Source of the DNA: Escherichia phage ekra
Strand: one strand, 5' to 3'
DNA length: 64,000 nt
Sequence record: MN850644.1
Positions 49,636-54,553 of this stretch are shown in pieces (positions within the stretch are counted from its first letter, which is position 1; the number at the start of each line of letters is the position of its first letter). Below the pieces are notes generated by a model, which was not told the origin of the DNA, ran no database searches, and saw only the letters and a list, made by a program, of their open reading frames with translations. A program made the position numbers and the translations under genes.

Positions 49636-49711
49636 TGGAGAATCCGAAGGGACTCGAACCCTTATAAACCTGTTTTGCAGACAGGTACATATCCATTTCT
49701 GTCACGGATTC
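49636..49711 (-). tRNA. tRNA-Cys (anticodon GCA)
   Basis: Hand-folded cloverleaf on minus strand; T-arm GACTCGAACCC-type; anticodon stem CCTGT/ACAGG, loop CTGCAAA; CCA encoded; ends +/-3 nt. Confidence 0.65.
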
Positions 49712-49715
49712 AAAT

Positions 49716-49808
49716 TGGAGGAAGATACCAGACTTGAACTGGTACACCGATTTCTCAGCTACTGGCAGTTTAGCAAACTGCTCCCTTACCTTTTAGGGTT
49801 AATCTTCC
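49716..49808 (-). tRNA. tRNA-Ser (anticodon GCT), long variable arm
   Basis: 93-nt element, acceptor GGAAGAT/ATCTTCC, anticodon loop TTGCTAA; hand-folded. Confidence 0.6.
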
Positions 49809-49809
49809 A

Positions 49810-50544
49810 TTATTTCTGTAATGCGCTCTTCATTTCTGGTGTTGCAATAGTGTCAATTACACCAGTTTTACAAGCATCGTCAAACCAGTCTGGTAAGATA
49901 CCTGCTAAGAACCCATTGATATTCGTTTTAAGGTACTCTGCAATAAGGGCAGCTTCTTCTTCAATCATCTGCACAACTTCATCTGCATAGGCGGTAATCT
50001 TTGAGATACCCTCATTAATCTTAATAACAGCTTGGTTAGCTAAATCAGAAACAGTATCAAGACCCTTATCAATAGCATCTTGTAAGTCACTTAACACATC
50101 GTTAACACTATCTAGTGTACTGTTAATCGTATCAATAGCTTTTTGACCATACTCTGTAGCAACACCCATAATACCACTGAATGGTGTACAACCGACTTGT
50201 TCTCCTGCTGCACCCATAACATTGGAGTATCCCTTTGCTACCTGCATACGTGATGAAAACTCATCAATAGACTTTTGACCATAGTCTGTTAGGGTCTTAG
50301 TAGTTGCTGTAGTGCTTGTCAGGCTTGTTGTAAAGCTGTTTAGAAGGACTGTTGTAAGTCCAGCAGCAACAAGCTTCTCCTCCATTGTAGGGTCTGTTAC
50401 AGAGCTAATAGAGCTTACAAGTGATGTAGAGGCAGCTACGGTTCCACCGAGAACTGCTGCACCAGTAATAAGTGGGTTAGAAAACCCTTTACCAGTTTTT
50501 AAGAGATTAAAAATCTCCTTACCTTGTTCTGTCATCTCTTTCAT
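49810..50544 (-). CDS. hypothetical protein embedded in tRNA array
   Basis: ORF 49810..50607 trimmed to ATG 50544 (MKEMTEQGKE, AAAGG RBS) so as not to overlap tRNA-Phe; Ser/Thr/Gly-rich N-terminal half, acidic helical C-terminal half. Confidence 0.4.
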   Translation of the reverse strand: MKEMTEQGKEIFNLLKTGKGFSNPLITGAAVLGGTVAASTSLVSSISSVTDPTMEEKLVAAGLTTVLLNSFTTSLTSTTATTKTLTDYGQKSIDEFSSRMQVAKGYSNVMGAAGEQVGCTPFSGIMGVATEYGQKAIDTINSTLDSVNDVLSDLQDAIDKGLDTVSDLANQAVIKINEGISKITAYADEVVQMIEEEAALIAEYLKTNINGFLAGILPDWFDDACKTGVIDTIATPEMKSALQK

Positions 50545-50560
50545 TAAGCACCTTTGAAAT

Positions 50561-50636
50561 TGGTAGTCCAGTGGGATTTGAACCCTCTTCTCATGTTTTT
50601 CAGACACGCGCTTTAACCATATAAGCTACTTGGACT
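50561..50636 (-). tRNA. tRNA-Phe (anticodon GAA)
   Basis: T-arm GGGATTTGAACCC; anticodon loop CTGAAAA; hand-folded. Confidence 0.6.
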
Positions 50637-50642
50637 ATAAAT

Positions 50643-50718
50643 TGGGGTGACCTACGGGATTTGAACCCGTATAGACCATGTTCACAGCATGGGTCATTAC
50701 CGTTTATGATAAGGCCAC
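50643..50718 (-). tRNA. tRNA-His (anticodon GTG)
   Basis: T-arm ACGGG-ATTTGAA-CCCGT; anticodon stem CATG/CATG, loop CTGTGAA; C73 discriminator. Confidence 0.6.
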
Positions 50719-50749
50719 ATTTAAGGACTCTCGTAAGAATCCTTAGAAG

Positions 50750-50825
50750 TGGCAGCGGCATAAGGATTTGAACCTTAATAGGACAGCTTCAGAGACTGCT
50801 GCATTGCCAGTTATGCTATACCGCT
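50750..50825 (-). tRNA. tRNA-Gln (anticodon CTG), tentative anticodon
   Basis: T-arm TAAGG-ATTTGAA-CCTTA clear; anticodon loop CTCTGAA with weak stem. Confidence 0.45.
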
Positions 50826-50830
50826 AAATT

Positions 50831-50909
50831 TGGTACTCCATATCGGATTCGAACCGATACATAACACAGATTTTAAGTCTGGCCTCTCTGCCAATTGGAG
50901 TAATGGAGC
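50831..50909 (-). tRNA. tRNA with Leu anticodon TAA; short variable region (unusual for Leu)
   Basis: T-arm ATCGG-ATTCGAA-CCGAT; loop CTTAAAA; D-loop AATTGGCAGAG (Leu-like); A73; only ~6 nt between anticodon and T stems. Confidence 0.45.
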
Positions 50910-50911
50910 AT

Positions 50912-50987
50912 TGGCGGGGGATGTTGGAATTGAACCAACTTCTTCGATTTCAAAGACCGAGGTTTTAACCTTGTAAACTAATCCCCT
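50912..50987 (-). tRNA. tRNA-Gln (anticodon TTG)
   Basis: T-arm GTTGG-AATTGAA-CCAAC; anticodon loop CTTTGAA; D-arm GTTT/AAAC. Confidence 0.5.
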
Positions 50988-50995
50988 TTAAATCT

Positions 50996-51553
50996 TTACT
51001 TTCTCAGTGGATGAATAAAGAATGCCAACATAACTCTTTCCCTTGAGAATGCTCTTTCTTCTGGGACAACACTTTTTAGTTTCCATCCAACATAAATTCT
51101 CCAGTAAAACTGTTTACCAAAGACTTTAATTGACGGAATAAAAGCGAATAATCCCCAAGCATTACTGTTCCACATTAGGAGATAACCTGTCTGATTATCT
51201 TCAGGGTCAGAACTTACGTTGATATTACCTTTCCACTTAGTAACATCTTTTACATCTCTTCCTAATACATGGTAAGAGAAGTTATAAGCTTTGTTTCTCC
51301 AGAGCCATCCGACTCTCTGCATGTAGACACCCAGCTTACCAATCTTTCTAATCTTAGCCCATCTTTTAACGTGACCTTCATCACCATCAATCGGATTGTC
51401 ATAGGTCTCCATCCATCTGAATCCAAAAGGTAGATGTCCTTTCTTCTCACTGTAGAATGGAACTACGAAAGGTGCTAAGATGACTGCTAGGGTTGCTGCA
51501 AATGGTTCTAGTAAAGCTAGGAAAATCCATGAAGCATACTTCAAATATCTCAT
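50996..51553 (-). CDS. hypothetical membrane protein embedded in tRNA array
   Basis: 185-aa ORF with AAGAGG RBS; N-terminal hydrophobic helix ASWIFLALLEPFAATLAVILAPFVVPF; Trp-rich. Confidence 0.45.
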   Translation of the reverse strand: MRYLKYASWIFLALLEPFAATLAVILAPFVVPFYSEKKGHLPFGFRWMETYDNPIDGDEGHVKRWAKIRKIGKLGVYMQRVGWLWRNKAYNFSYHVLGRDVKDVTKWKGNINVSSDPEDNQTGYLLMWNSNAWGLFAFIPSIKVFGKQFYWRIYVGWKLKSVVPEERAFSRERVMLAFFIHPLRK

Positions 51554-51572
51554 CTAAATAGCCTCTTAAAAT

Positions 51573-53135: not shown

Positions 53136-53211
53136 TGGTACTGGTAGGTGGAATCGAACCACCGATGTTCCCTTATCAGGGGAGTGTTATAACCTTCTTA
53201 ACTATACCAGC
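53136..53211 (-). tRNA. tRNA-Ile (anticodon GAT)
   Basis: T-arm GGTGG-AATCGAA-CCACC perfect; anticodon loop CTGATAA. Confidence 0.6.
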
Positions 53212-53213
53212 TT

Positions 53214-53290
53214 GGAGGTTCAGATGGGAATCGAACCCACATTCATAGGGCTTATGAGACCCCTGCATTACCTTATCTGCGACTGAACCA
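53214..53290 (-). tRNA. tRNA-Met (anticodon CAT; initiator, elongator or Ile-lysidine type not resolved)
   Basis: Acceptor GGTTCAG/CTGAACC perfect; anticodon loop CTCATAA with three consecutive G-C pairs in anticodon stem. Confidence 0.55.
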
Positions 53291-53293
53291 TAT

Positions 53294-53369
53294 TGGTAGA
53301 AGTGGAGGGATTCGAACCCATCGCCTGTCAGATTAAAAGTCTGCCGCATCACCATTCTGCTACACTTCC
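53294..53369 (-). tRNA. tRNA-Lys (anticodon TTT)
   Basis: T-arm GGAGGGATTCGAACCC; anticodon loop CTTTTAA. Confidence 0.6.
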
Positions 53370-53827
53370 ATTAAATTATCTTTGTAGATAAGCTACCCAG
53401 ACTTGCTTAAGGTCTGTAGCGATGTGCTTTGTTGGGTTTAAATCTAGAATTTACCCTTTCACCCTTTGTGGTCGCATACTCACAGGTAAGCTTAATAACT
53501 TATCTACAAAGATAATTACCAGACCGTTGTTTATCATCTTAAGTGCTACCATTACACCAACTCGACATCTGCCGAGTGAAGGAATCGAACCTTCGCCTTT
53601 TCTTTACCGGAGAAATAGATTGTTTAAGTTTTGCTGTAAACGGTCTTCTGTAAATTTGTTGAGCCAGACCAAGTTTTAAATTTTTTCAAAATTAAATTGG
53701 CTTGAAAATATCATACGTACTTGCTGAATTTGGTCTTCTGCTCCTTTAAAGAATACTCGTAAGAACTCTTTAAGGGAGGGGCTAAATAGCCCTCTCAAAA
53801 CATCATCTTGAAATACTTATTATAATT

Positions 53828-53905
53828 TGGCGGTTACGAAGGGATTTGAACCCTCATCATCTCCCGTGACAGGGGAGTATTTTAACCAGATTAAACTACA
53901 TAACC
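53828..53905 (-). tRNA. tRNA-Asp (anticodon GTC)
   Basis: Anticodon stem CTCCC/GGGAG perfect, loop CTGTCAC; T-arm AAGGG-ATTTGAA-CCCTC. Confidence 0.65.
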
Positions 53906-53911
53906 TTTATT

Positions 53912-53999
53912 TGGTGTGCCGTGTAGGAGTCGAACCTACCGAGTCTCAATGACAAGGGATTTACAGTCCCCACCGCTACCATCTACGGGATAACGACAC
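53912..53999 (-). tRNA. tRNA-Tyr (anticodon GTA), long variable arm
   Basis: 88-nt element; T-arm GTAGG-AGTCGAA-CCTAC; loop CTGTAAA; ~15-nt variable arm. Confidence 0.55.
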
Positions 54000-54070
54000 A
54001 TTTTATTATTCTATTCAGGCTAAGGACTTGCACCTTACAAATCGGTGAGCAATCGCTTCTCTCCTAAATT

Positions 54071-54147
54071 TGGCGGTTAGTCAGGGATTCGAACCCTGTG
54101 CCATTCGCTTAACAGGCGACCGCACATACCTTATGTGCTTCCTAACC
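54071..54147 (-). tRNA. tRNA-Asn (anticodon GTT)
   Basis: T-arm CAGGG-ATTCGAA-CCCTG; anticodon loop CTGTTAA; D stem GCAC/GTGC. Confidence 0.6.
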
Positions 54148-54225
54148 TTAATACATTGCCAGACCGTGTTTTTTTCTTTTATCCGCAAAAAGTAGTTTGT
54201 TGCTGCATACGGTCTTCTGCAAAAT

Positions 54226-54302
54226 TGGAGGCGGGTGCAGGAGTCGAACCTACCGATACCATGCTAATGAGACATGTGAGACGCCCTTTCTCTATACCCG
54301 CA
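54226..54302 (-). tRNA. tRNA-Met, second CAT-anticodon gene
   Basis: T-loop AGTCGAA; anticodon stem CATG/CATG, loop CTCATTA. Confidence 0.5.
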
Positions 54303-54391
54303 ATTCTTAATGACCAGACCAAATATCTTCTTTGTCCGATTTATCTTCAGATGAATAAGATTAAGTTTGCTGCAATTGGTCTTCTGTCAAA

Positions 54392-54469
54392 ACTGGCGTT
54401 CCAGAAGGGATTTGAACCCTCAAATATCCACTTTGAAAGAGTGGTGACTTTACCGTTTTGTCTACTGGA
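54392..54469 (-). tRNA. tRNA-Glu (anticodon TTC)
   Basis: Acceptor GTTCCAG/CTGGAAC perfect; anticodon stem CCACT/AGTGG perfect, loop CTTTCAA. Confidence 0.65.
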
Positions 54470-54476
54470 ACATTAA

Positions 54477-54553
54477 TTTGGTCTCTGTTGGAGGACTTGA
54501 ACCTCCGGCCTTACCGCCCCAAACGGAACGCTCTACCAAGCTGAGCTAAACAG
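54477..54553 (-). tRNA. tRNA-Pro (anticodon TGG)
   Basis: T-arm GGAGG-ACTTGAA-CCTCC perfect; acceptor CTCTGTT/AACAGAG; anticodon loop TTTGGGG with G37. Confidence 0.55.

What the first reader, a model, noticed from the sequence alone, without database searches (positions are those of the whole stretch)
49636..54553. 26-gene tRNA array that appears to cover all 20 amino acids
Hand folding finds 26 minus-strand tRNA genes with anticodons for Cys, Ser(2), Phe, His, Gln(2), Leu(3), Val, Thr, Gly, Ala, Lys(2), Trp, Arg, Ile, Met/CAT(2), Asp, Tyr, Asn, Glu and Pro. That is at least one tRNA for each of the 20 amino acids, sitting between the terminase gene and a vWA protein gene. Large phage tRNA sets are known, but a full 20-amino-acid complement in one compact array is notable. 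It could mean translational autonomy or a counter-measure against host anticodon nucleases or tRNA-depleting defences.
Basis: partly seen in the sequence, partly recalled or inferred. Interest (0 to 1): 0.6.

Follow-up and report, generated by a model that had tools for sequence, protein, structure and literature searches.

The report
Felix O1-type phage tRNA operon
This is the well-known tRNA gene cluster of a Felix O1-like phage (25 standard tRNAs plus an odd tryptophan-like one), so the "complete set" claim is ordinary and only partly true; but the cluster also hides four unannotated small RNAs that look like partners of the Ro60-like RNA-binding protein encoded next door.

Summary
The array is real. 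The 26th, Trp, is not called by either. It is a tRNA-Trp derivative (52587-52669) with an oversized D loop.

The window is a Felixounavirus: 237 GenBank phages carry at least 80% of this array. The cluster and its codon-usage rationale were published for Felix O1 in 2010, so it is already known.

"All 20 amino acids" is soft:
- Trp is non-standard.
- The two CAT tRNAs are ambiguous.
- No tRNA reads CGN, which is 49% of Arg codons.
- Near-identical relatives lack Arg, Asp or Tyr tRNAs.

The tRNAs are functional accessories. Felixounavirus tRNA-Ser(UGA) rescues infection of Syn61Δ3, yet the tRNAs are mostly dispensable in Bas63.

The new part lies elsewhere. The "vWA protein" upstream folds as Ro60 and is 97% identical to Bas63 gp130. 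Four inter-tRNA elements (54386-53516) belong to an unannotated RNA family: a covarying 7-bp closing stem followed by UWCAGCAA. This family sits beside Ro60-like genes in many unrelated phages. One element carries a YrlA-style tRNA-like domain. They are probably Y-RNA-like partners of that protein.

The parts
54721..56136 (-). It is the ortholog of Bas63 gp130.
   Evidence: Pfam DUF2828+DUF7788. PHROG 850 'RNA-binding protein'. AF2 model with pLDDT 86. The top 10 Foldseek PDB hits are all Ro60/Rsr/TROVE, aligned over the full length, E 3e-8 to 9e-6. MIDAS residues D278/S280/S282/T348/D380 are invariant. 97% identical to bas63_0130.
54582..54611 (-). Sigma-70-like promoter upstream of tRNA-Pro
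   Evidence: TTGACA-18-TAAAGT with an extended TG, 10/12 matches. This is a consensus match only.
54479..54555 (-). tRNA-Pro (UGG)
   Evidence: ARAGORN. Rfam 57.7 bits.
54394..54471 (-). tRNA-Glu (UUC)
   Evidence: ARAGORN. Rfam 60.6 bits.
54311..54386 (-). Y-RNA-like element A, short form. Closing stem AGACCAA/UUGGUCU, followed by UUGCAGCAA.
   Evidence: Model R1, built only from unrelated phages, scores it 27.2 bits, E 3.5e-4, rank 2 in the whole window.
54226..54302 (-). CAT tRNA no. 1. The acceptor is initiator-like (U1·C72 mismatch, GCGGG). It lacks the three G-C pairs in the anticodon stem and has U37.
   Evidence: Called by ARAGORN only. No Rfam hit. Alignment to E. coli metY/metT/ileX.
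54156..54219 (-). Y-RNA-like element B, short form. Closing stem AGACCGU/ACGGUCU, followed by AUGCAGCAA.
   Evidence: R1 scores it 31.9 bits, E 2.4e-5, rank 1 in the window.
54071..54147 (-). tRNA-Asn (GUU)
   Evidence: ARAGORN. Rfam 48 bits.
53912..53999 (-). tRNA-Tyr (GUA), class II with a long variable arm
   Evidence: ARAGORN. Rfam matches only the tRNA-Sec model, at 29.6 bits. tRNAscan labels it 'pseudo' in the Felix O1 and AYO145A records.
53828..53905 (-). tRNA-Asp (GUC)
   Evidence: ARAGORN. Rfam 65.2 bits.
53661..53740 (-). Y-RNA-like element C, short form. Closing stem AGACCAA/UUGGUCU, followed by AUUCAGCAA.
   Evidence: R1 scores it 24.2 bits, E 1.9e-3, rank 3 in the window.
53516..53650 (-). 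Y-RNA-like element D, the long YrlA-style form. Closing stem AGACCGU/ACGGUCU, followed by UUACAGCAA. Then V hairpin 53615-53599, T arm 53594-53578, capped acceptor-like stem 53577-53560, and D arm 53557-53543.
   Evidence: Model R2, built only from long forms in unrelated phages, scores it 50.8 bits, E 7.6e-8, over its full length, rank 1 in the window. A strict T-AS-D pattern scan finds it as the only hit in the window. The capped stem shows compensatory changes between lineages: ACUCGGC/GUCGAGU versus ACACGU/GCGUGU.
53294..53369 (-). tRNA-Lys (UUU)
   Evidence: ARAGORN. Rfam 54.4 bits.
53213..53289 (-). CAT tRNA no. 2. G1-C72 is paired and there is a G27·U43 wobble as in E. coli ileX. It is either elongator Met or Ile2 (AUA).
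   Evidence: ARAGORN. Rfam 54.3 bits. Alignment.
53136..53211 (-). tRNA-Ile (GAU)
   Evidence: ARAGORN. Rfam 62.3 bits.
53092..53120 (-). Internal sigma-70-like promoter
   Evidence: TTGACA-17-TATAGT, 11/12, the best match in the region. This is a consensus match only.
52812..52888 (-). tRNA-Arg (UCU)
   Evidence: ARAGORN. Rfam 62.8 bits.
52587..52669 (-). Non-standard tRNA-Trp-like gene (CCA anticodon) with an expanded D loop
   Evidence: Not called by default ARAGORN or by the Rfam tRNA model. Aligns to E. coli trpT. Present in 198 GenBank phages and never annotated as tRNA in the rows sampled. Variants among relatives: G1 to A1, which gives A1-U72, and a coupled C32U/A38C change with the anticodon unchanged.
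52484..52573 (-). tRNA-Ser (UGA). It is the only tRNA here without an encoded CCA.
   Evidence: ARAGORN. Rfam 33.2 bits. Sequence. The ortholog is the tRNA that lets Felixounavirus REP phages infect Syn61Δ3.
52151..52228 (-). tRNA-Leu (UAG)
   Evidence: ARAGORN. Rfam 40 bits.
52068..52143 (-). tRNA-Lys (CUU)
   Evidence: ARAGORN. Rfam 58.2 bits.
51986..52061 (-). tRNA-Ala (UGC)
   Evidence: ARAGORN. Rfam 62.7 bits.
51905..51979 (-). tRNA-Gly (UCC)
   Evidence: ARAGORN. Rfam 59.6 bits.
51822..51898 (-). tRNA-Thr (UGU)
   Evidence: ARAGORN. Rfam 54.7 bits.
51652..51726 (-). tRNA-Val (UAC)
   Evidence: ARAGORN. Rfam 60 bits.
51573..51650 (-). tRNA-Leu (CAA)
   Evidence: ARAGORN. Rfam 44 bits.
50996..51553 (-). 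Protein gene inside the array, 185 aa, DUF7338
   Evidence: Pfam E 3.6e-61. PHROG 2143.
50912..50987 (-). tRNA-Gln (UUG)
   Evidence: ARAGORN. Rfam 56.6 bits.
50831..50909 (-). tRNA-Leu (UAA)
   Evidence: ARAGORN. Rfam 47.5 bits.
50750..50825 (-). tRNA-Gln (CUG)
   Evidence: ARAGORN. Rfam 57 bits.
50643..50718 (-). tRNA-His (GUG)
   Evidence: ARAGORN. Rfam 53.3 bits.
50561..50636 (-). tRNA-Phe (GAA)
   Evidence: ARAGORN. Rfam 45 bits.
49810..50544 (-). Protein gene inside the array, about 244 aa from the ATG, DUF7217. Annotated as a putative membrane protein in relatives.
   Evidence: Pfam E 1.3e-87. Annotation in phage finno.
49716..49808 (-). tRNA-Ser (GCU)
   Evidence: ARAGORN. Rfam 46.2 bits.
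49636..49711 (-). tRNA-Cys (GCA)
   Evidence: ARAGORN. Rfam 56.3 bits.
49456..49473 (-). Terminator-like hairpin followed by a T run, downstream of the last tRNA
   Evidence: GACGGTCTCTGTGCCGTC followed by TTTTTT. This is a consensus match only.

Best explanation
The region is the tRNA operon of a Felix O1-like myovirus (genus Felixounavirus).

Shown:
- There are 25 standard tRNA genes and one non-standard tRNA-Trp derivative, all on one strand.
- 24 of the 25 encode their CCA end.
- Two small protein genes interrupt the array.
- Sigma-70-like promoter matches precede the array, and a terminator-like hairpin follows it.

Inferred from established tRNA biology:
- Host RNA polymerase makes polycistronic precursors.
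- Host RNase P, RNase E and the 3' exonucleases cut these into mature tRNAs.
- Host synthetases charge the tRNAs.

The tRNAs are mostly U34 or G34 species. They read the A/U-ending codons that this 39% G+C phage uses far more than E. coli does, namely AGA, ACA, UCA, UUA, CUA, GCA, CCA, GUA and AAG. They therefore top up scarce host tRNAs. They also act as a spare set when host tRNAs are missing or destroyed.

The set is an accessory toolbox, not an autonomous or complete decoding system.

A second layer, supported by comparative evidence but not by experiment, is built into the promoter-proximal third of the same transcription unit. It consists of four structured RNAs, three short and one with a tRNA-like V-T-capped-acceptor-D domain. 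They belong to an RNA family found next to Ro60-like (DUF2828) genes in many phages.

RNase P cutting at the 5' end of the next tRNA, together with 3' trimming of the previous one, would release these RNAs as small RNAs with paired ends.

The most likely role is as Y-RNA-like ligands of the Ro60-like protein encoded immediately upstream. That protein's Bas63 ortholog counters the ppl defence system.
For: tRNA calls come.

Identity of the phage and conservation of the array:
- 348 GenBank phage records match, and 237 carry at least 80% of the region, at 80-99% identity.
- The gene order is the same in annotated records of finno, LTH02, AYO145A and Bas63.
- The Felix O1 genome paper lists the same order (Pro, Glu, Met, Asn, Tyr, Asp, Lys, Ile ...). 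It reports 22 tRNAs and a codon-usage analysis.

Codon usage, per 1000 codons in phage versus an E. coli sample:
- AGA 17.3 vs 3.2
- ACA 24.8 vs 8.6
- UCA 18.9 vs 7.9
- UUA 21.6 vs 11.7
- CUA 9.3 vs 3.0
- AAG 32.4 vs 14.6
Each of these codons has an exactly matching phage tRNA.

Function:
- A REP12 mutant with a triplicated tRNA operon gained titre.

Ro60-like neighbour.

RNA family:
- In 75 unrelated loci, the motif T[AT]CAGCAA occurs 131 times on the gene strand and 66 times on the other strand.
- The 7-mer before the motif has a downstream complement in 82 of 131 cases. With shuffled 7-mers this is 21 of 131; looking upstream gives 6 of 131; on the opposite strand it is 9 of 66.
- There are 53 different stems.
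- Six of the 7 stem pairs show changes on both sides.
- Models built without any Felixounavirus sequence recover the four window elements as top hits.
- All 70 R1 hits in 80 loci lie on the strand of the Ro60-like gene.
Against: - No expression, processing or charging data exist for this window.
- The promoter and terminator matches are no more numerous than in shuffled sequence.
- A simple test of exact-anticodon tRNAs against codons enriched in the phage is not significant (13/30 vs 10/29, p=0.6). The codon-compensation signal is therefore carried by the NNA codons only.
- Bas63 tRNAs are mostly non-essential on four laboratory strains.
- For the RNA layer, Rfam's YrlA model does not match.
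- The published Ro-binding motif GNCGAAN0-1G is absent.
- Protein-RNA binding is untested.
- Pfam TROVE does not match the protein by sequence.
Confidence: 0.8

Rival explanations
1. The array is a deliberately complete, 20-amino-acid tRNA set that gives the phage translational autonomy from host tRNAs.
For: Counting the Trp-like gene, and taking one CAT tRNA as Met, every amino acid has at least one anticodon.
Against: - Trp is non-standard and is not called by predictors.
- No tRNA reads the CGN codons, which make up 49% of Arg codons in the window's genes.
- The Arg-ACG tRNA that most relatives carry is absent here.
- Relatives with more than 95% identity lack whole amino acids. L004 has no Arg tRNA, L016 has no Asp, and L018/L022 have no Tyr.
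- The tRNAs are mostly dispensable in Bas63.
- No aminoacyl-tRNA synthetases are encoded nearby.
Confidence: 0.07
2. The main selective value of the array is to escape host tRNA-cleaving defences (anticodon nucleases, PARIS, retron effectors) by supplying cleavage-resistant copies, rather than to compensate codon usage.
For: - Phage tRNAs are only 57-72% identical to the E. coli isoacceptors, and every anticodon stem differs.
- The anticodon loops differ for His, both Gln tRNAs (positions 32/38), Leu-UAG and Pro.
- The Trp-like gene shows a coupled 32/38 change among relatives while its anticodon stays intact.
- Retron Eco2, which cuts tRNAs, does not protect against most Felixounavirus phages.
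- The literature cited reports that phage tRNAs evade tRNA-targeting defences.
Against: - The anticodon loops are identical to the host's for Lys-UUU, Tyr and Asp, three isoacceptors that (from general knowledge) are classic nuclease targets. They are also identical for Val, Thr, Gly and CAT tRNA no. 2.
- No Felixounavirus tRNA has been tested against a nuclease in the papers read.
- Insensitivity to Eco2 could have other causes.
- This role does not exclude codon supply.
Confidence: 0.3
3. The four repeated elements are only processing spacers, terminators, attenuators or small mobile repeats of the tRNA operon, with no link to the Ro60-like protein. The tRNA-like part of element D is debris from two decayed tRNA genes.
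For: - They lie exactly between tRNAs.
- Other spacers in the array are also strongly structured.
- In other phages, several capped acceptor loops contain NCCA, as expected if such modules arose from tandem tRNAs.
- Rfam's YrlA model does not match.
Against: - The same stem-plus-motif family sits directly before or after the Ro60-like gene in phages that have no tRNA within 4 kb, for example L041 and L043-L046.
- All 70 model hits are on the gene's strand.
- The stems covary.
- The capped acceptor stem keeps its pairing through double changes between lineages.
- The V-T-AS-D order matches published YrlA architecture.
Confidence: 0.2
4. The Trp-like gene is a decaying pseudogene, not a working tRNA.
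For: - It scores below the thresholds of ARAGORN and Rfam.
- Its D loop is about 16 nt, and it has C31·A39 and A49·C65 mismatches.
- One relative, L011, carries a T-stem-disrupting change.
- It is replaced by a different Trp gene plus an HNH endonuclease in 23 GenBank phages.
Against: - It is kept in 198 GenBank phages at mostly 95% identity or more.
- The anticodon, G73, the encoded CCA, the T loop, the D-loop GG and the trpT-like D stem are all intact.
- The commonest variant restores A1-U72, as in E. coli trpT.
- The only anticodon-loop changes are the coupled 32/38 pair.
Confidence: 0.45

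Closest known systems
tRNA cluster of Salmonella phage Felix O1 and other Felixounavirus phages (Whichard et al. 2010, PMC3185647; comparative study PMC8300805)
   Same: The phage genus, the position between the packaging genes and the 'RNA-binding/vWA' gene, the gene order and the anticodons are all the same. DNA identity to many records is 95-97%.
   Different: Counts differ with the predictor used: 17-23 with tRNAscan/RAST and 25-26 with ARAGORN. This genome lacks Arg-ACG and carries the common Trp-like allele.
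Salmonella/bacterial Rsr (Ro60) with YrlA and YrlB Y RNAs (Chen et al. 2014, PMC4201824)
   Same: - A Ro60-fold protein gene has small RNAs within 4 kb on the same strand.
- There is one long RNA with V, T, capped-acceptor and D stem-loops in that order, plus shorter RNAs without the tRNA-like domain.
- The 5' and 3' ends pair in a stem, next to a short conserved single-stranded motif.
   Different: - The protein is DUF2828/DUF7788, not Pfam TROVE, by sequence.
- The motif is UWCAGCAA rather than GNCGAAN0-1G.
- The Rfam YrlA model does not match.
- The RNAs are embedded in a tRNA operon.
Thermus phage phiLo φRo60 with Yrl1/Yrl2 (PMC12135203; PDB 9KOP, 9L5Y)
   Same: It is a phage-encoded Ro60-fold protein with two adjacent Y-RNA-like genes. 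It is the best structural match of the window's protein.
   Different: - The phiLo RNAs carry the CGAA motif and lie upstream of the gene.
- Sequence identity is only 16% over the structural alignment.
- No tRNA array is described for phiLo.
Bas63 (JohannRWettstein) gp130, an anti-ppl factor (PhageMaP preprint 10.1101/2024.10.10.617714)
   Same: It is the ortholog, 97% identical, with the same position upstream of the same array. The authors noted its Ro60 fold and guessed that some 'tRNAs' might be Y RNAs.
   Different: The preprint names no RNA. The candidates found here are not among the annotated tRNAs. They lie in unannotated spacers, two of them under small 'hypothetical' CDS on the other strand.
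Phage T4 tRNA gene region, with stable RNAs (species 1 and 2) and the SegB homing endonuclease. This item rests on general knowledge and was not checked here.
   Same: It is a polycistronic phage tRNA cluster with non-tRNA stable RNAs. A free-standing homing endonuclease drives allele replacement inside the cluster, which can be compared with the HNH/alternative-Trp cassette in relatives.
   Different: T4 has 8 tRNAs and no Ro60-like gene. Any relation between the T4 stable RNAs and this family was not tested.

Membership tests
tRNA (Rfam RF00005 / cloverleaf) | Called as a cloverleaf with a 7-nt anticodon loop by a standard predictor | tested here: met
   25 genes are called by default ARAGORN. 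23 reach the Rfam gathering score of 29 bits.
tRNA (Rfam RF00005 / cloverleaf) | The same criterion applied to the Trp candidate 52587-52669 | tested here: not met
   There is no default ARAGORN call. With a relaxed threshold ARAGORN reports 'tRNA-???'. Rfam gives 23 bits on the Sec model only, E 0.46. The D loop is about 16 nt.
Felixounavirus tRNA cluster | Nucleotide similarity and the same gene order as in annotated Felixounavirus genomes | tested here: met
   237 records cover at least 80% of the region, with best identity 97%. The order is identical in finno, Bas63 and AYO145A, and in Table 1 of the Felix O1 paper.
Complete tRNA complement | At least one standard tRNA for each of the 20 amino acids | tested here: not met
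   There is no standard Trp tRNA. The identities of the CAT tRNAs as Met, fMet or Ile2 are unresolved.
Complete tRNA complement | All sense codons are readable by the encoded set | tested here: not met
   No anticodon covers CGN. GGU/GGC, and the C-ending codons of four-codon boxes, depend on single U34 tRNAs.
Ro60 / Rsr (TROVE + vWA) protein family, for the neighbouring gene | A helical-repeat ring domain followed by a vWA domain with a MIDAS motif | tested here: met
   The AF2 model has pLDDT 86 and pTM 0.86. Foldseek gives full-length matches to Ro60 entries 9l5y, 2i91, 2nvo, 1yvp and 9nfa (TMq 0.46-0.64), and the ten best hits are all Ro60/Rsr/TROVE (E 3e-8 to 9e-6). The DxSxS...T...D residues are invariant in 28 homologs.
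Ro60 / Rsr (TROVE + vWA) protein family, for the neighbouring gene | Sequence match to Pfam TROVE or to solved Ro60 proteins | tested here: not met
   Pfam reports only DUF2828 and DUF7788. A profile of 28 homologs finds no Ro60 among PDB sequences.
Ro60 / Rsr (TROVE + vWA) protein family, for the neighbouring gene | Binds Y RNAs or misfolded RNAs | not testable with these tools
   This needs RIP-seq or EMSA.
YrlA-type Y RNA (Rfam RF02553; Chen et al. 2014) | V, T, capped acceptor-like and D stem-loops in that order, inside a stem formed by the 5' and 3' ends | tested here: met
   Element D, 53516-53650, meets this. The T loop is UUCGAUU. The D loop is AAUGGUA with GG. The capped stem has compensatory changes.
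YrlA-type Y RNA (Rfam RF02553; Chen et al. 2014) | Encoded within about 4 kb of the Ro60 gene, on the same strand | tested here: met
   The elements lie 0.3-1.2 kb downstream of the stop codon at 54721, on the same strand. All 70 family hits in 80 loci are on the gene's strand.
YrlA-type Y RNA (Rfam RF02553; Chen et al. 2014) | The GNCGAAN0-1G motif near the 5' end, and a match to the Rfam covariance model | tested here: not met
   The motif here is UWCAGCAA. There is no YrlA hit at E<=10 on 53490-53760, and none at gathering score in 16 related loci.
New 'UWCAGCAA' RNA family next to DUF2828 genes (defined here) | A 7-bp covarying closing stem, 1-2 nt, then T[AT]CAGCAA, detected by models built without the window's lineage | tested here: met
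   R1 gives E 2.4e-5, 3.5e-4 and 1.9e-3 for elements B, A and C. These are the three best hits in 64 kb on both strands, and the next hit has E 0.29. R2 gives E 7.6e-8 for element D. E-values are rough because the calibration was short.

The most novel reading that the evidence does not exclude
The promoter-proximal part of this 'tRNA array' is really a mixed tRNA/Y-RNA operon. Four unannotated RNAs (54386-53516) would be the missing RNA partners of the phage's Ro60-like anti-defence protein (the Bas63 gp130 ortholog). They would also be members of a large, previously undescribed phage RNA family. That family is defined by a covarying closing stem plus a UWCAGCAA motif, with interchangeable inner modules: none, a tRNA-like domain, or other folds of up to about 250 nt. 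It accompanies DUF2828-type Ro60-like genes in many unrelated phages. The tRNA-like module could recruit tRNA-handling enzymes, or it could decoy tRNA-targeting or other defence nucleases.
Probability: 0.6. Interest if true: 0.65.

Novelty: already known. Interest (0 to 1): 0.35.

Why it matters
The tRNA array as such adds nothing new. It is a textbook feature of Felix O1-like phages and is already being exploited in recoded-genome work.

What could matter is the side result. The Ro60-like protein of Bas63 was recently reported to counter the ppl defence system, and its authors could only guess that Y RNAs hide among the tRNAs. The four elements mapped here, and the wider UWCAGCAA family, give concrete and testable candidates for those RNAs. 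They suggest that divergent Ro60-Y RNA particles are common in phages.

The result also flags annotation errors. Small 'hypothetical' CDS are laid over structured RNAs, and a Trp-like tRNA is missed in about 200 genomes.

Tried and rejected
- **ARAGORN options.** The intron option and thresholds lowered to 90% gave no Trp. At 80% the Trp site appears only as 'tRNA-???'. At 60% the output is dominated by obvious false positives.
- **Rfam E-value scans** of 49000-55500 and 53490-53760 found no known family for the spacers. The weak tmRNA_permuted hit (27 bits) and the Plastid-ycf2 and miRNA hits are chance matches or antisense tRNA matches.
- **Rfam at gathering score on 16 related loci** found only tRNAs and one tmRNA.
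- **A ribozyme, MITE or BHB-intron reading** of the CAGAAGACC...GGUCUGG repeats was considered. It was dropped once the stem proved to be one instance of a covarying stem in a wider family.
- **Sequence-profile search of PDB** with 28 homologs found no Ro60. Only the fold comparison did.
- **blastn of CAT tRNA no. 2** against all complete E. coli genomes found nothing. Host tRNAs had to be fetched by coordinate.
- **Fisher test** of exact-anticodon tRNAs against phage-enriched codons was not significant.
- **The Nature paper on Syn61Δ3-infecting phages** was not in the library. Its result is cited through two papers that describe it.
- **MAFFT alignment of the long elements** misaligned the capped acceptor and D arms. 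Model R2 therefore uses only the closing stem and the T arm as pairs.

Full report

ARAGORN with default settings finds 25 tRNA genes in the 64-kb window. All are on the minus strand between 49636 and 54555.

Rfam's tRNA model passes its curated threshold for 23 of them.
- The class II tRNA-Tyr (53912-53999) matches only the tRNA-Sec model, at 29.6 bits.
- The CAT tRNA at 54226-54302 gets no Rfam hit at all.

- At an 80% threshold the site is reported as 'tRNA-???'.
- Rfam gives 23 bits, E=0.46, on the Sec model.

The flanking genes are as described: a T4-type large terminase at 47590-49206 and a 471-aa gene at 54721-56136.

The one gene on which "all 20 amino acids" depends is the one that fails the automated check.

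**2. What is the Trp candidate?**

Aligned with E. coli trpT (fetched), the stretch 52587-52669 is clearly a tRNA-Trp derivative. It has:
- acceptor GUGGGAC/GUCCCAU, followed by G73 and an encoded CCA;
- the trpT D-stem pairs G-C, U·G and U-A, and the D-loop GG;
- the anticodon arm ACGGC-CUCCAAA-ACCGU;
- the T loop UUCAACU.

Three things differ from trpT. The D loop is about 16 nt instead of 8-9. There is one extra nucleotide after the acceptor stem (or an 8th acceptor pair). Positions 31:39 and 49:65 are mismatched.

It is widely conserved.
- It is present in 20 of the 23 Felixounavirus loci fetched that cover this site (L029, a genome-end fragment, does not reach it).
- It is present in 198 GenBank phages, and was not annotated as a tRNA in any of the five records sampled.

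The few variants are informative.
- The commonest variant changes G1 to A1, giving the A1-U72 pair of trpT.
- Five loci carry a coupled C32U/A38C change while the anticodon stays CCA.
- One locus has a T-stem-breaking change.

Three IMG/VR loci and 23 GenBank phages (including wV8, where it is labelled 'tRNA-OTHER') carry something different at the same site. They have a 71-nt Trp(CCA) gene with a trpT-like acceptor (AGGGGUG...CACCCCU-G-CCA) but a poor D arm. An HNH endonuclease ORF follows it. This looks like a homing cassette.

Whether either Trp allele is charged cannot be decided here. I put function and pseudogene at roughly even odds.

**3. What is the array, and is it new?**

The region matches 348 GenBank phage records, and 237 of them carry at least 80% of it. 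The best identity is 97%, and almost all are Escherichia, Salmonella or Shigella Felixounavirus phages.

Annotated records show the same order of the same tRNAs between the same neighbours.

The Felix O1 genome paper of 2010 already reported 22 tRNAs, two of them labelled pseudo, in this order. It included a codon-usage analysis and the idea that seven of them boost translation. A comparative study gives 17-23 tRNAs per genome with tRNAscan. ARAGORN-based records list 25.

The array is therefore already known. The differences in counts come from the choice of predictor.

**4. How complete is the set?**

One anticodon per amino acid is not the same as decoding autonomy.

In 69 long ORFs of the window, CGN codons make up 49% of Arg codons, yet the only Arg tRNA here is UCU. 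The Arg-ACG gene that most relatives carry between Leu-CAA and the DUF7338 gene is absent. GGU and GGC make up 77% of Gly codons, and only Gly-UCC is encoded.

The two CAT tRNAs are ambiguous.
- The first (54226-54302) has an initiator-like acceptor (unpaired U1·C72, GCGGG). It lacks the three G-C pairs of initiator anticodon stems and has U37.
- The second (53213-53289) has a paired 1:72 and the G27·U43 wobble seen in E. coli ileX. It could be elongator Met or the AUA-reading Ile2.

Among relatives with more than 95% identity, the set varies.
- L004 has no Arg tRNA.
- L016 has no Asp tRNA.
- L018 and L022 have no Tyr tRNA.
- L011 has no Lys-UUU tRNA.

Completeness is thus neither robust in this genome nor conserved in the genus.

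**5. How does the array work?**

All tRNAs except Ser-UGA encode their CCA end. They are separated by 1-10 nt within blocks.

Three signals are sensibly placed, although such matches are not enriched over shuffled sequence:
- a sigma-70-like site 27 nt upstream of tRNA-Pro (TTGACA-18-TAAAGT with TG);
- the best match in the region, between Ile and Arg (TTGACA-17-TATAGT);
- a hairpin followed by a T run after Cys.

From established tRNA biology, I infer polycistronic transcription by host RNA polymerase, processing by host RNase P and 3' nucleases, and charging by host synthetases.

The anticodons are mostly U34 or G34 species. The NNA and AAG codons most over-used relative to an E. coli sample all have an exactly matching phage tRNA. 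These are AGA, ACA, UCA, UUA, CUA, GCA, CCA, GUA and AAG. A crude all-codon Fisher test is not significant (p=0.6).

Direct functional evidence exists for the genus.
- An evolved REP12 with a triplicated tRNA operon gained titre.

Conversely, Bas63 tRNAs are mostly non-essential on four laboratory strains. This fits an accessory, condition-dependent toolbox.

**6. The counter-defence idea**

I compared 13 phage tRNAs with their E. coli isoacceptors.
- Overall identity is only 57-72%, and all anticodon stems differ.
- The 7-nt anticodon loops are identical for Lys-UUU, Tyr, Asp, Val, Thr, Gly and the second CAT tRNA.
- The loops differ for His, both Gln tRNAs (positions 32 and 38), Leu-UAG, Pro and the first CAT tRNA.

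Retron Eco2, which cleaves tRNAs, does not protect against most Felixounavirus phages.

This is compatible with nuclease evasion, but it does not show it. The hypothesis remains open and does not exclude codon supply.

**7. The neighbour is Ro60-like**

The "vWA protein" matches Pfam DUF2828 and DUF7788 and PHROG 850 'RNA-binding protein'. It has thousands of phage homologs.

A profile of 28 homologs finds no solved relative by sequence.

An AlphaFold model is confident (pLDDT 86, pTM 0.86). Its ten best PDB matches are all full-length Ro60/Rsr/TROVE proteins (E 3e-8 to 9e-6, TM up to 0.64). They include the Ro60 of Thermus phage phiLo, Xenopus Ro60 and Deinococcus Rsr. The next hits match the vWA domain only. 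The MIDAS residues are invariant.

**8. Four unannotated RNAs inside the array**

While reading the spacers I noticed four copies of CAGAAGACCnn-N3-CAGCAA ... nnGGUCUGG between Glu and Lys-UUU. They carry CCAA/UUGG versus CCGU/ACGG exchanges.

The fourth copy encloses a permuted tRNA-like module. In order, it contains:
- a V hairpin;
- a T arm, GAAGG-UUCGAUU-CCUUC;
- an acceptor-like stem closed by a loop, ACUCGGC-AGAU-GUCGAGU;
- the dinucleotide UG;
- a D arm, GUGU-AAUGGUA-GCAC.

This is the V-T-AS-D order that defines bacterial YrlA Y RNAs, which lie within 4 kb of Ro60 genes on the same strand.

The capped stem differs between Felixounavirus lineages by double changes that keep the pairing: ACUCGGC/GUCGAGU versus ACACGU/GCGUGU.

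**9. The elements belong to a wide family tied to the Ro60-like gene**

I fetched 80 viral loci encoding homologs of the protein; 75 of them have only 39-47% identity to it.

Many carry a characteristic element directly before or after the gene, on the same strand. It has a 7-bp stem, usually AG.../...CU, then 1-2 nt, then U[AU]CAGCAA. A variable interior and the complementary strand follow.

The interior takes three forms:
- short, about 55-65 nt overall;
- with a tRNA-like T/AS/D module, in L047, L051, L056, L059, L079, L098 and L109;
- other long structures, up to about 250 nt.

A test that does not presuppose pairing gave the following in the 75 non-Felixounavirus loci.
- The motif occurs 131 times on the gene strand and 66 times on the other strand.
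- The preceding 7-mer has a complement within 240 nt downstream in 82 of 131 cases.
- With shuffled 7-mers this figure is 21 of 131. Looking upstream gives 6 of 131. On the opposite strand it is 9 of 66.
- There are 53 different stems, and 51 of the 75 loci have at least one element.

On an alignment of 28 short forms, six of the seven stem pairs show changes on both sides. That alignment was selected for pairing, so only the diversity counts as evidence.

Two covariance models were built without any Felixounavirus sequence.
- R1 (short forms) ranks elements B, A and C as the three best hits in the whole window on both strands, with filters off. Their E-values are 2.4e-5, 3.5e-4 and 1.9e-3, and the next hit has E 0.29.
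- In the 80 loci, all 70 R1 hits at E<=0.01 lie on the gene's strand, and 42 of them are not seed sequences.
- R2 (nine long forms) finds element D over its full length, at 50.8 bits and E 7.6e-8. Ordinary tRNAs score at E>=0.1.

These E-values are rough because the calibration was short.

Rfam 15 has no family for these RNAs, and its YrlA model does not match them. The published Ro-binding motif GNCGAAN0-1G is replaced by UWCAGCAA.

The elements are present in Bas63. There, two of them lie under small 'hypothetical' CDS on the opposite strand. Element D occurs in 230 GenBank phages and is unannotated there.

**10. Interpretation and limits**

The comparative evidence shows a conserved structured RNA family that is physically linked to this Ro60-like protein family.

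That these RNAs bind the protein, and what they do, is inference by analogy with Rsr-YrlA/YrlB and phiLo φRo60-Yrl1/2. Their position between tRNAs means that ordinary tRNA processing would release them with paired ends.

In 27 of the 80 loci the Ro60-like gene has tRNAs within 4 kb, always on the same strand. The family also occurs where no tRNA is nearby. This argues against a mere tRNA-spacer role.

**11. Verdict**

The finding as written is a correct description of a known, ordinary feature. Its "complete set" claim is over-stated.

Its interest is low on its own. It is raised somewhat by the unannotated Y-RNA-like elements inside its coordinates and by the Ro60-like identity of its neighbour. 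Together these make a recent hypothesis directly testable.

Noticed in passing
L006:3161-3650, L014 and L022 (the same site as window 52587-52669): This is an alternative cassette at the Trp site. It has a different 71-nt tRNA-Trp(CCA) with a trpT-like acceptor, followed by an HNH endonuclease ORF of about 140 aa. It occurs in 23 GenBank phages, including wV8, and looks like intron-less homing inside the tRNA cluster.
   Followed up: partly
window 53370-53515 (-): This 146-nt spacer between element D and tRNA-Lys folds into a 22-bp terminal stem that encloses several hairpins. The MFE is -46.4 kcal/mol and the z-score is -5.7. Its function is unknown, and in some records it lies under a small 'hypothetical' CDS.
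   Followed up: partly
window 52889-53010 (-) and 52229-52370 (-): Two more spacers are strongly structured (z -5.0 and -4.2). Each ends in a long hairpin built on CUUUAAAG/CUUUAAAG-like arms a few nt before the next tRNA. Similar hairpins precede His (about 50720-50749) and lie after Asp (53745-53775). They may be processing signals.
   Followed up: partly
window 51727-51821 (-); L025:4655-4739: The 95-nt spacer between Thr and Val has a closing stem AGAGGUC/GACCUCU (the AG...CU form seen in the Y-like family) but no CAGCAA motif (z -3.0). It is 83% conserved in a distant 121-kb phage contig (L025).
   Followed up: no
L109:5843-5901, L109:8527-8582, L079:5563-5618, L074:1012-1067: In several unrelated phages, the loop that caps the acceptor-like stem of the tRNA-like module contains NCCA. 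This is what would be expected if these modules arose by permutation of tandem tRNA genes.
   Followed up: no
L053:8236-8685: A tmRNA gene (Rfam RF00023, 75 bits) lies about 2.9 kb downstream of the Ro60-like gene in an uncultivated phage contig. Two family elements sit in between.
   Followed up: no
L120 (Bas63) 3249-3523; record MZ501086.1 82748-83022: The small 'hypothetical protein' CDS bas63_0137 and bas63_0138 are annotated on the opposite strand, over the region that holds elements C and D and the long-stem spacer. They are probably mis-annotations of RNA genes.
   Followed up: partly
window 51554-51572 compared with L002:3577-3649: This genome lacks the tRNA-Arg(ACG) gene that most relatives carry between the DUF7338 gene and tRNA-Leu(CAA). 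Gains and losses of single tRNAs (Arg-UCU, Arg-ACG, Asp, Tyr, Lys-UUU) are common among genomes more than 95% identical.
   Followed up: yes
window 49810-50544 (-) and 50996-51553 (-): Two conserved protein genes of unknown function are embedded in the tRNA operon. They are DUF7217 (annotated as a membrane protein in relatives) and DUF7338. Homologs of the DUF7338 protein also occur in much larger phage genomes (121-180 kb contigs) at 58-62% identity.
   Followed up: partly
window 53010-53194 (-): There is a weak Rfam match to permuted tmRNA (27 bits; the threshold is 47). It overlaps the 3' part of tRNA-Ile and the following spacer. It is most likely driven by the tRNA-like part and therefore a chance match.
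   Followed up: no
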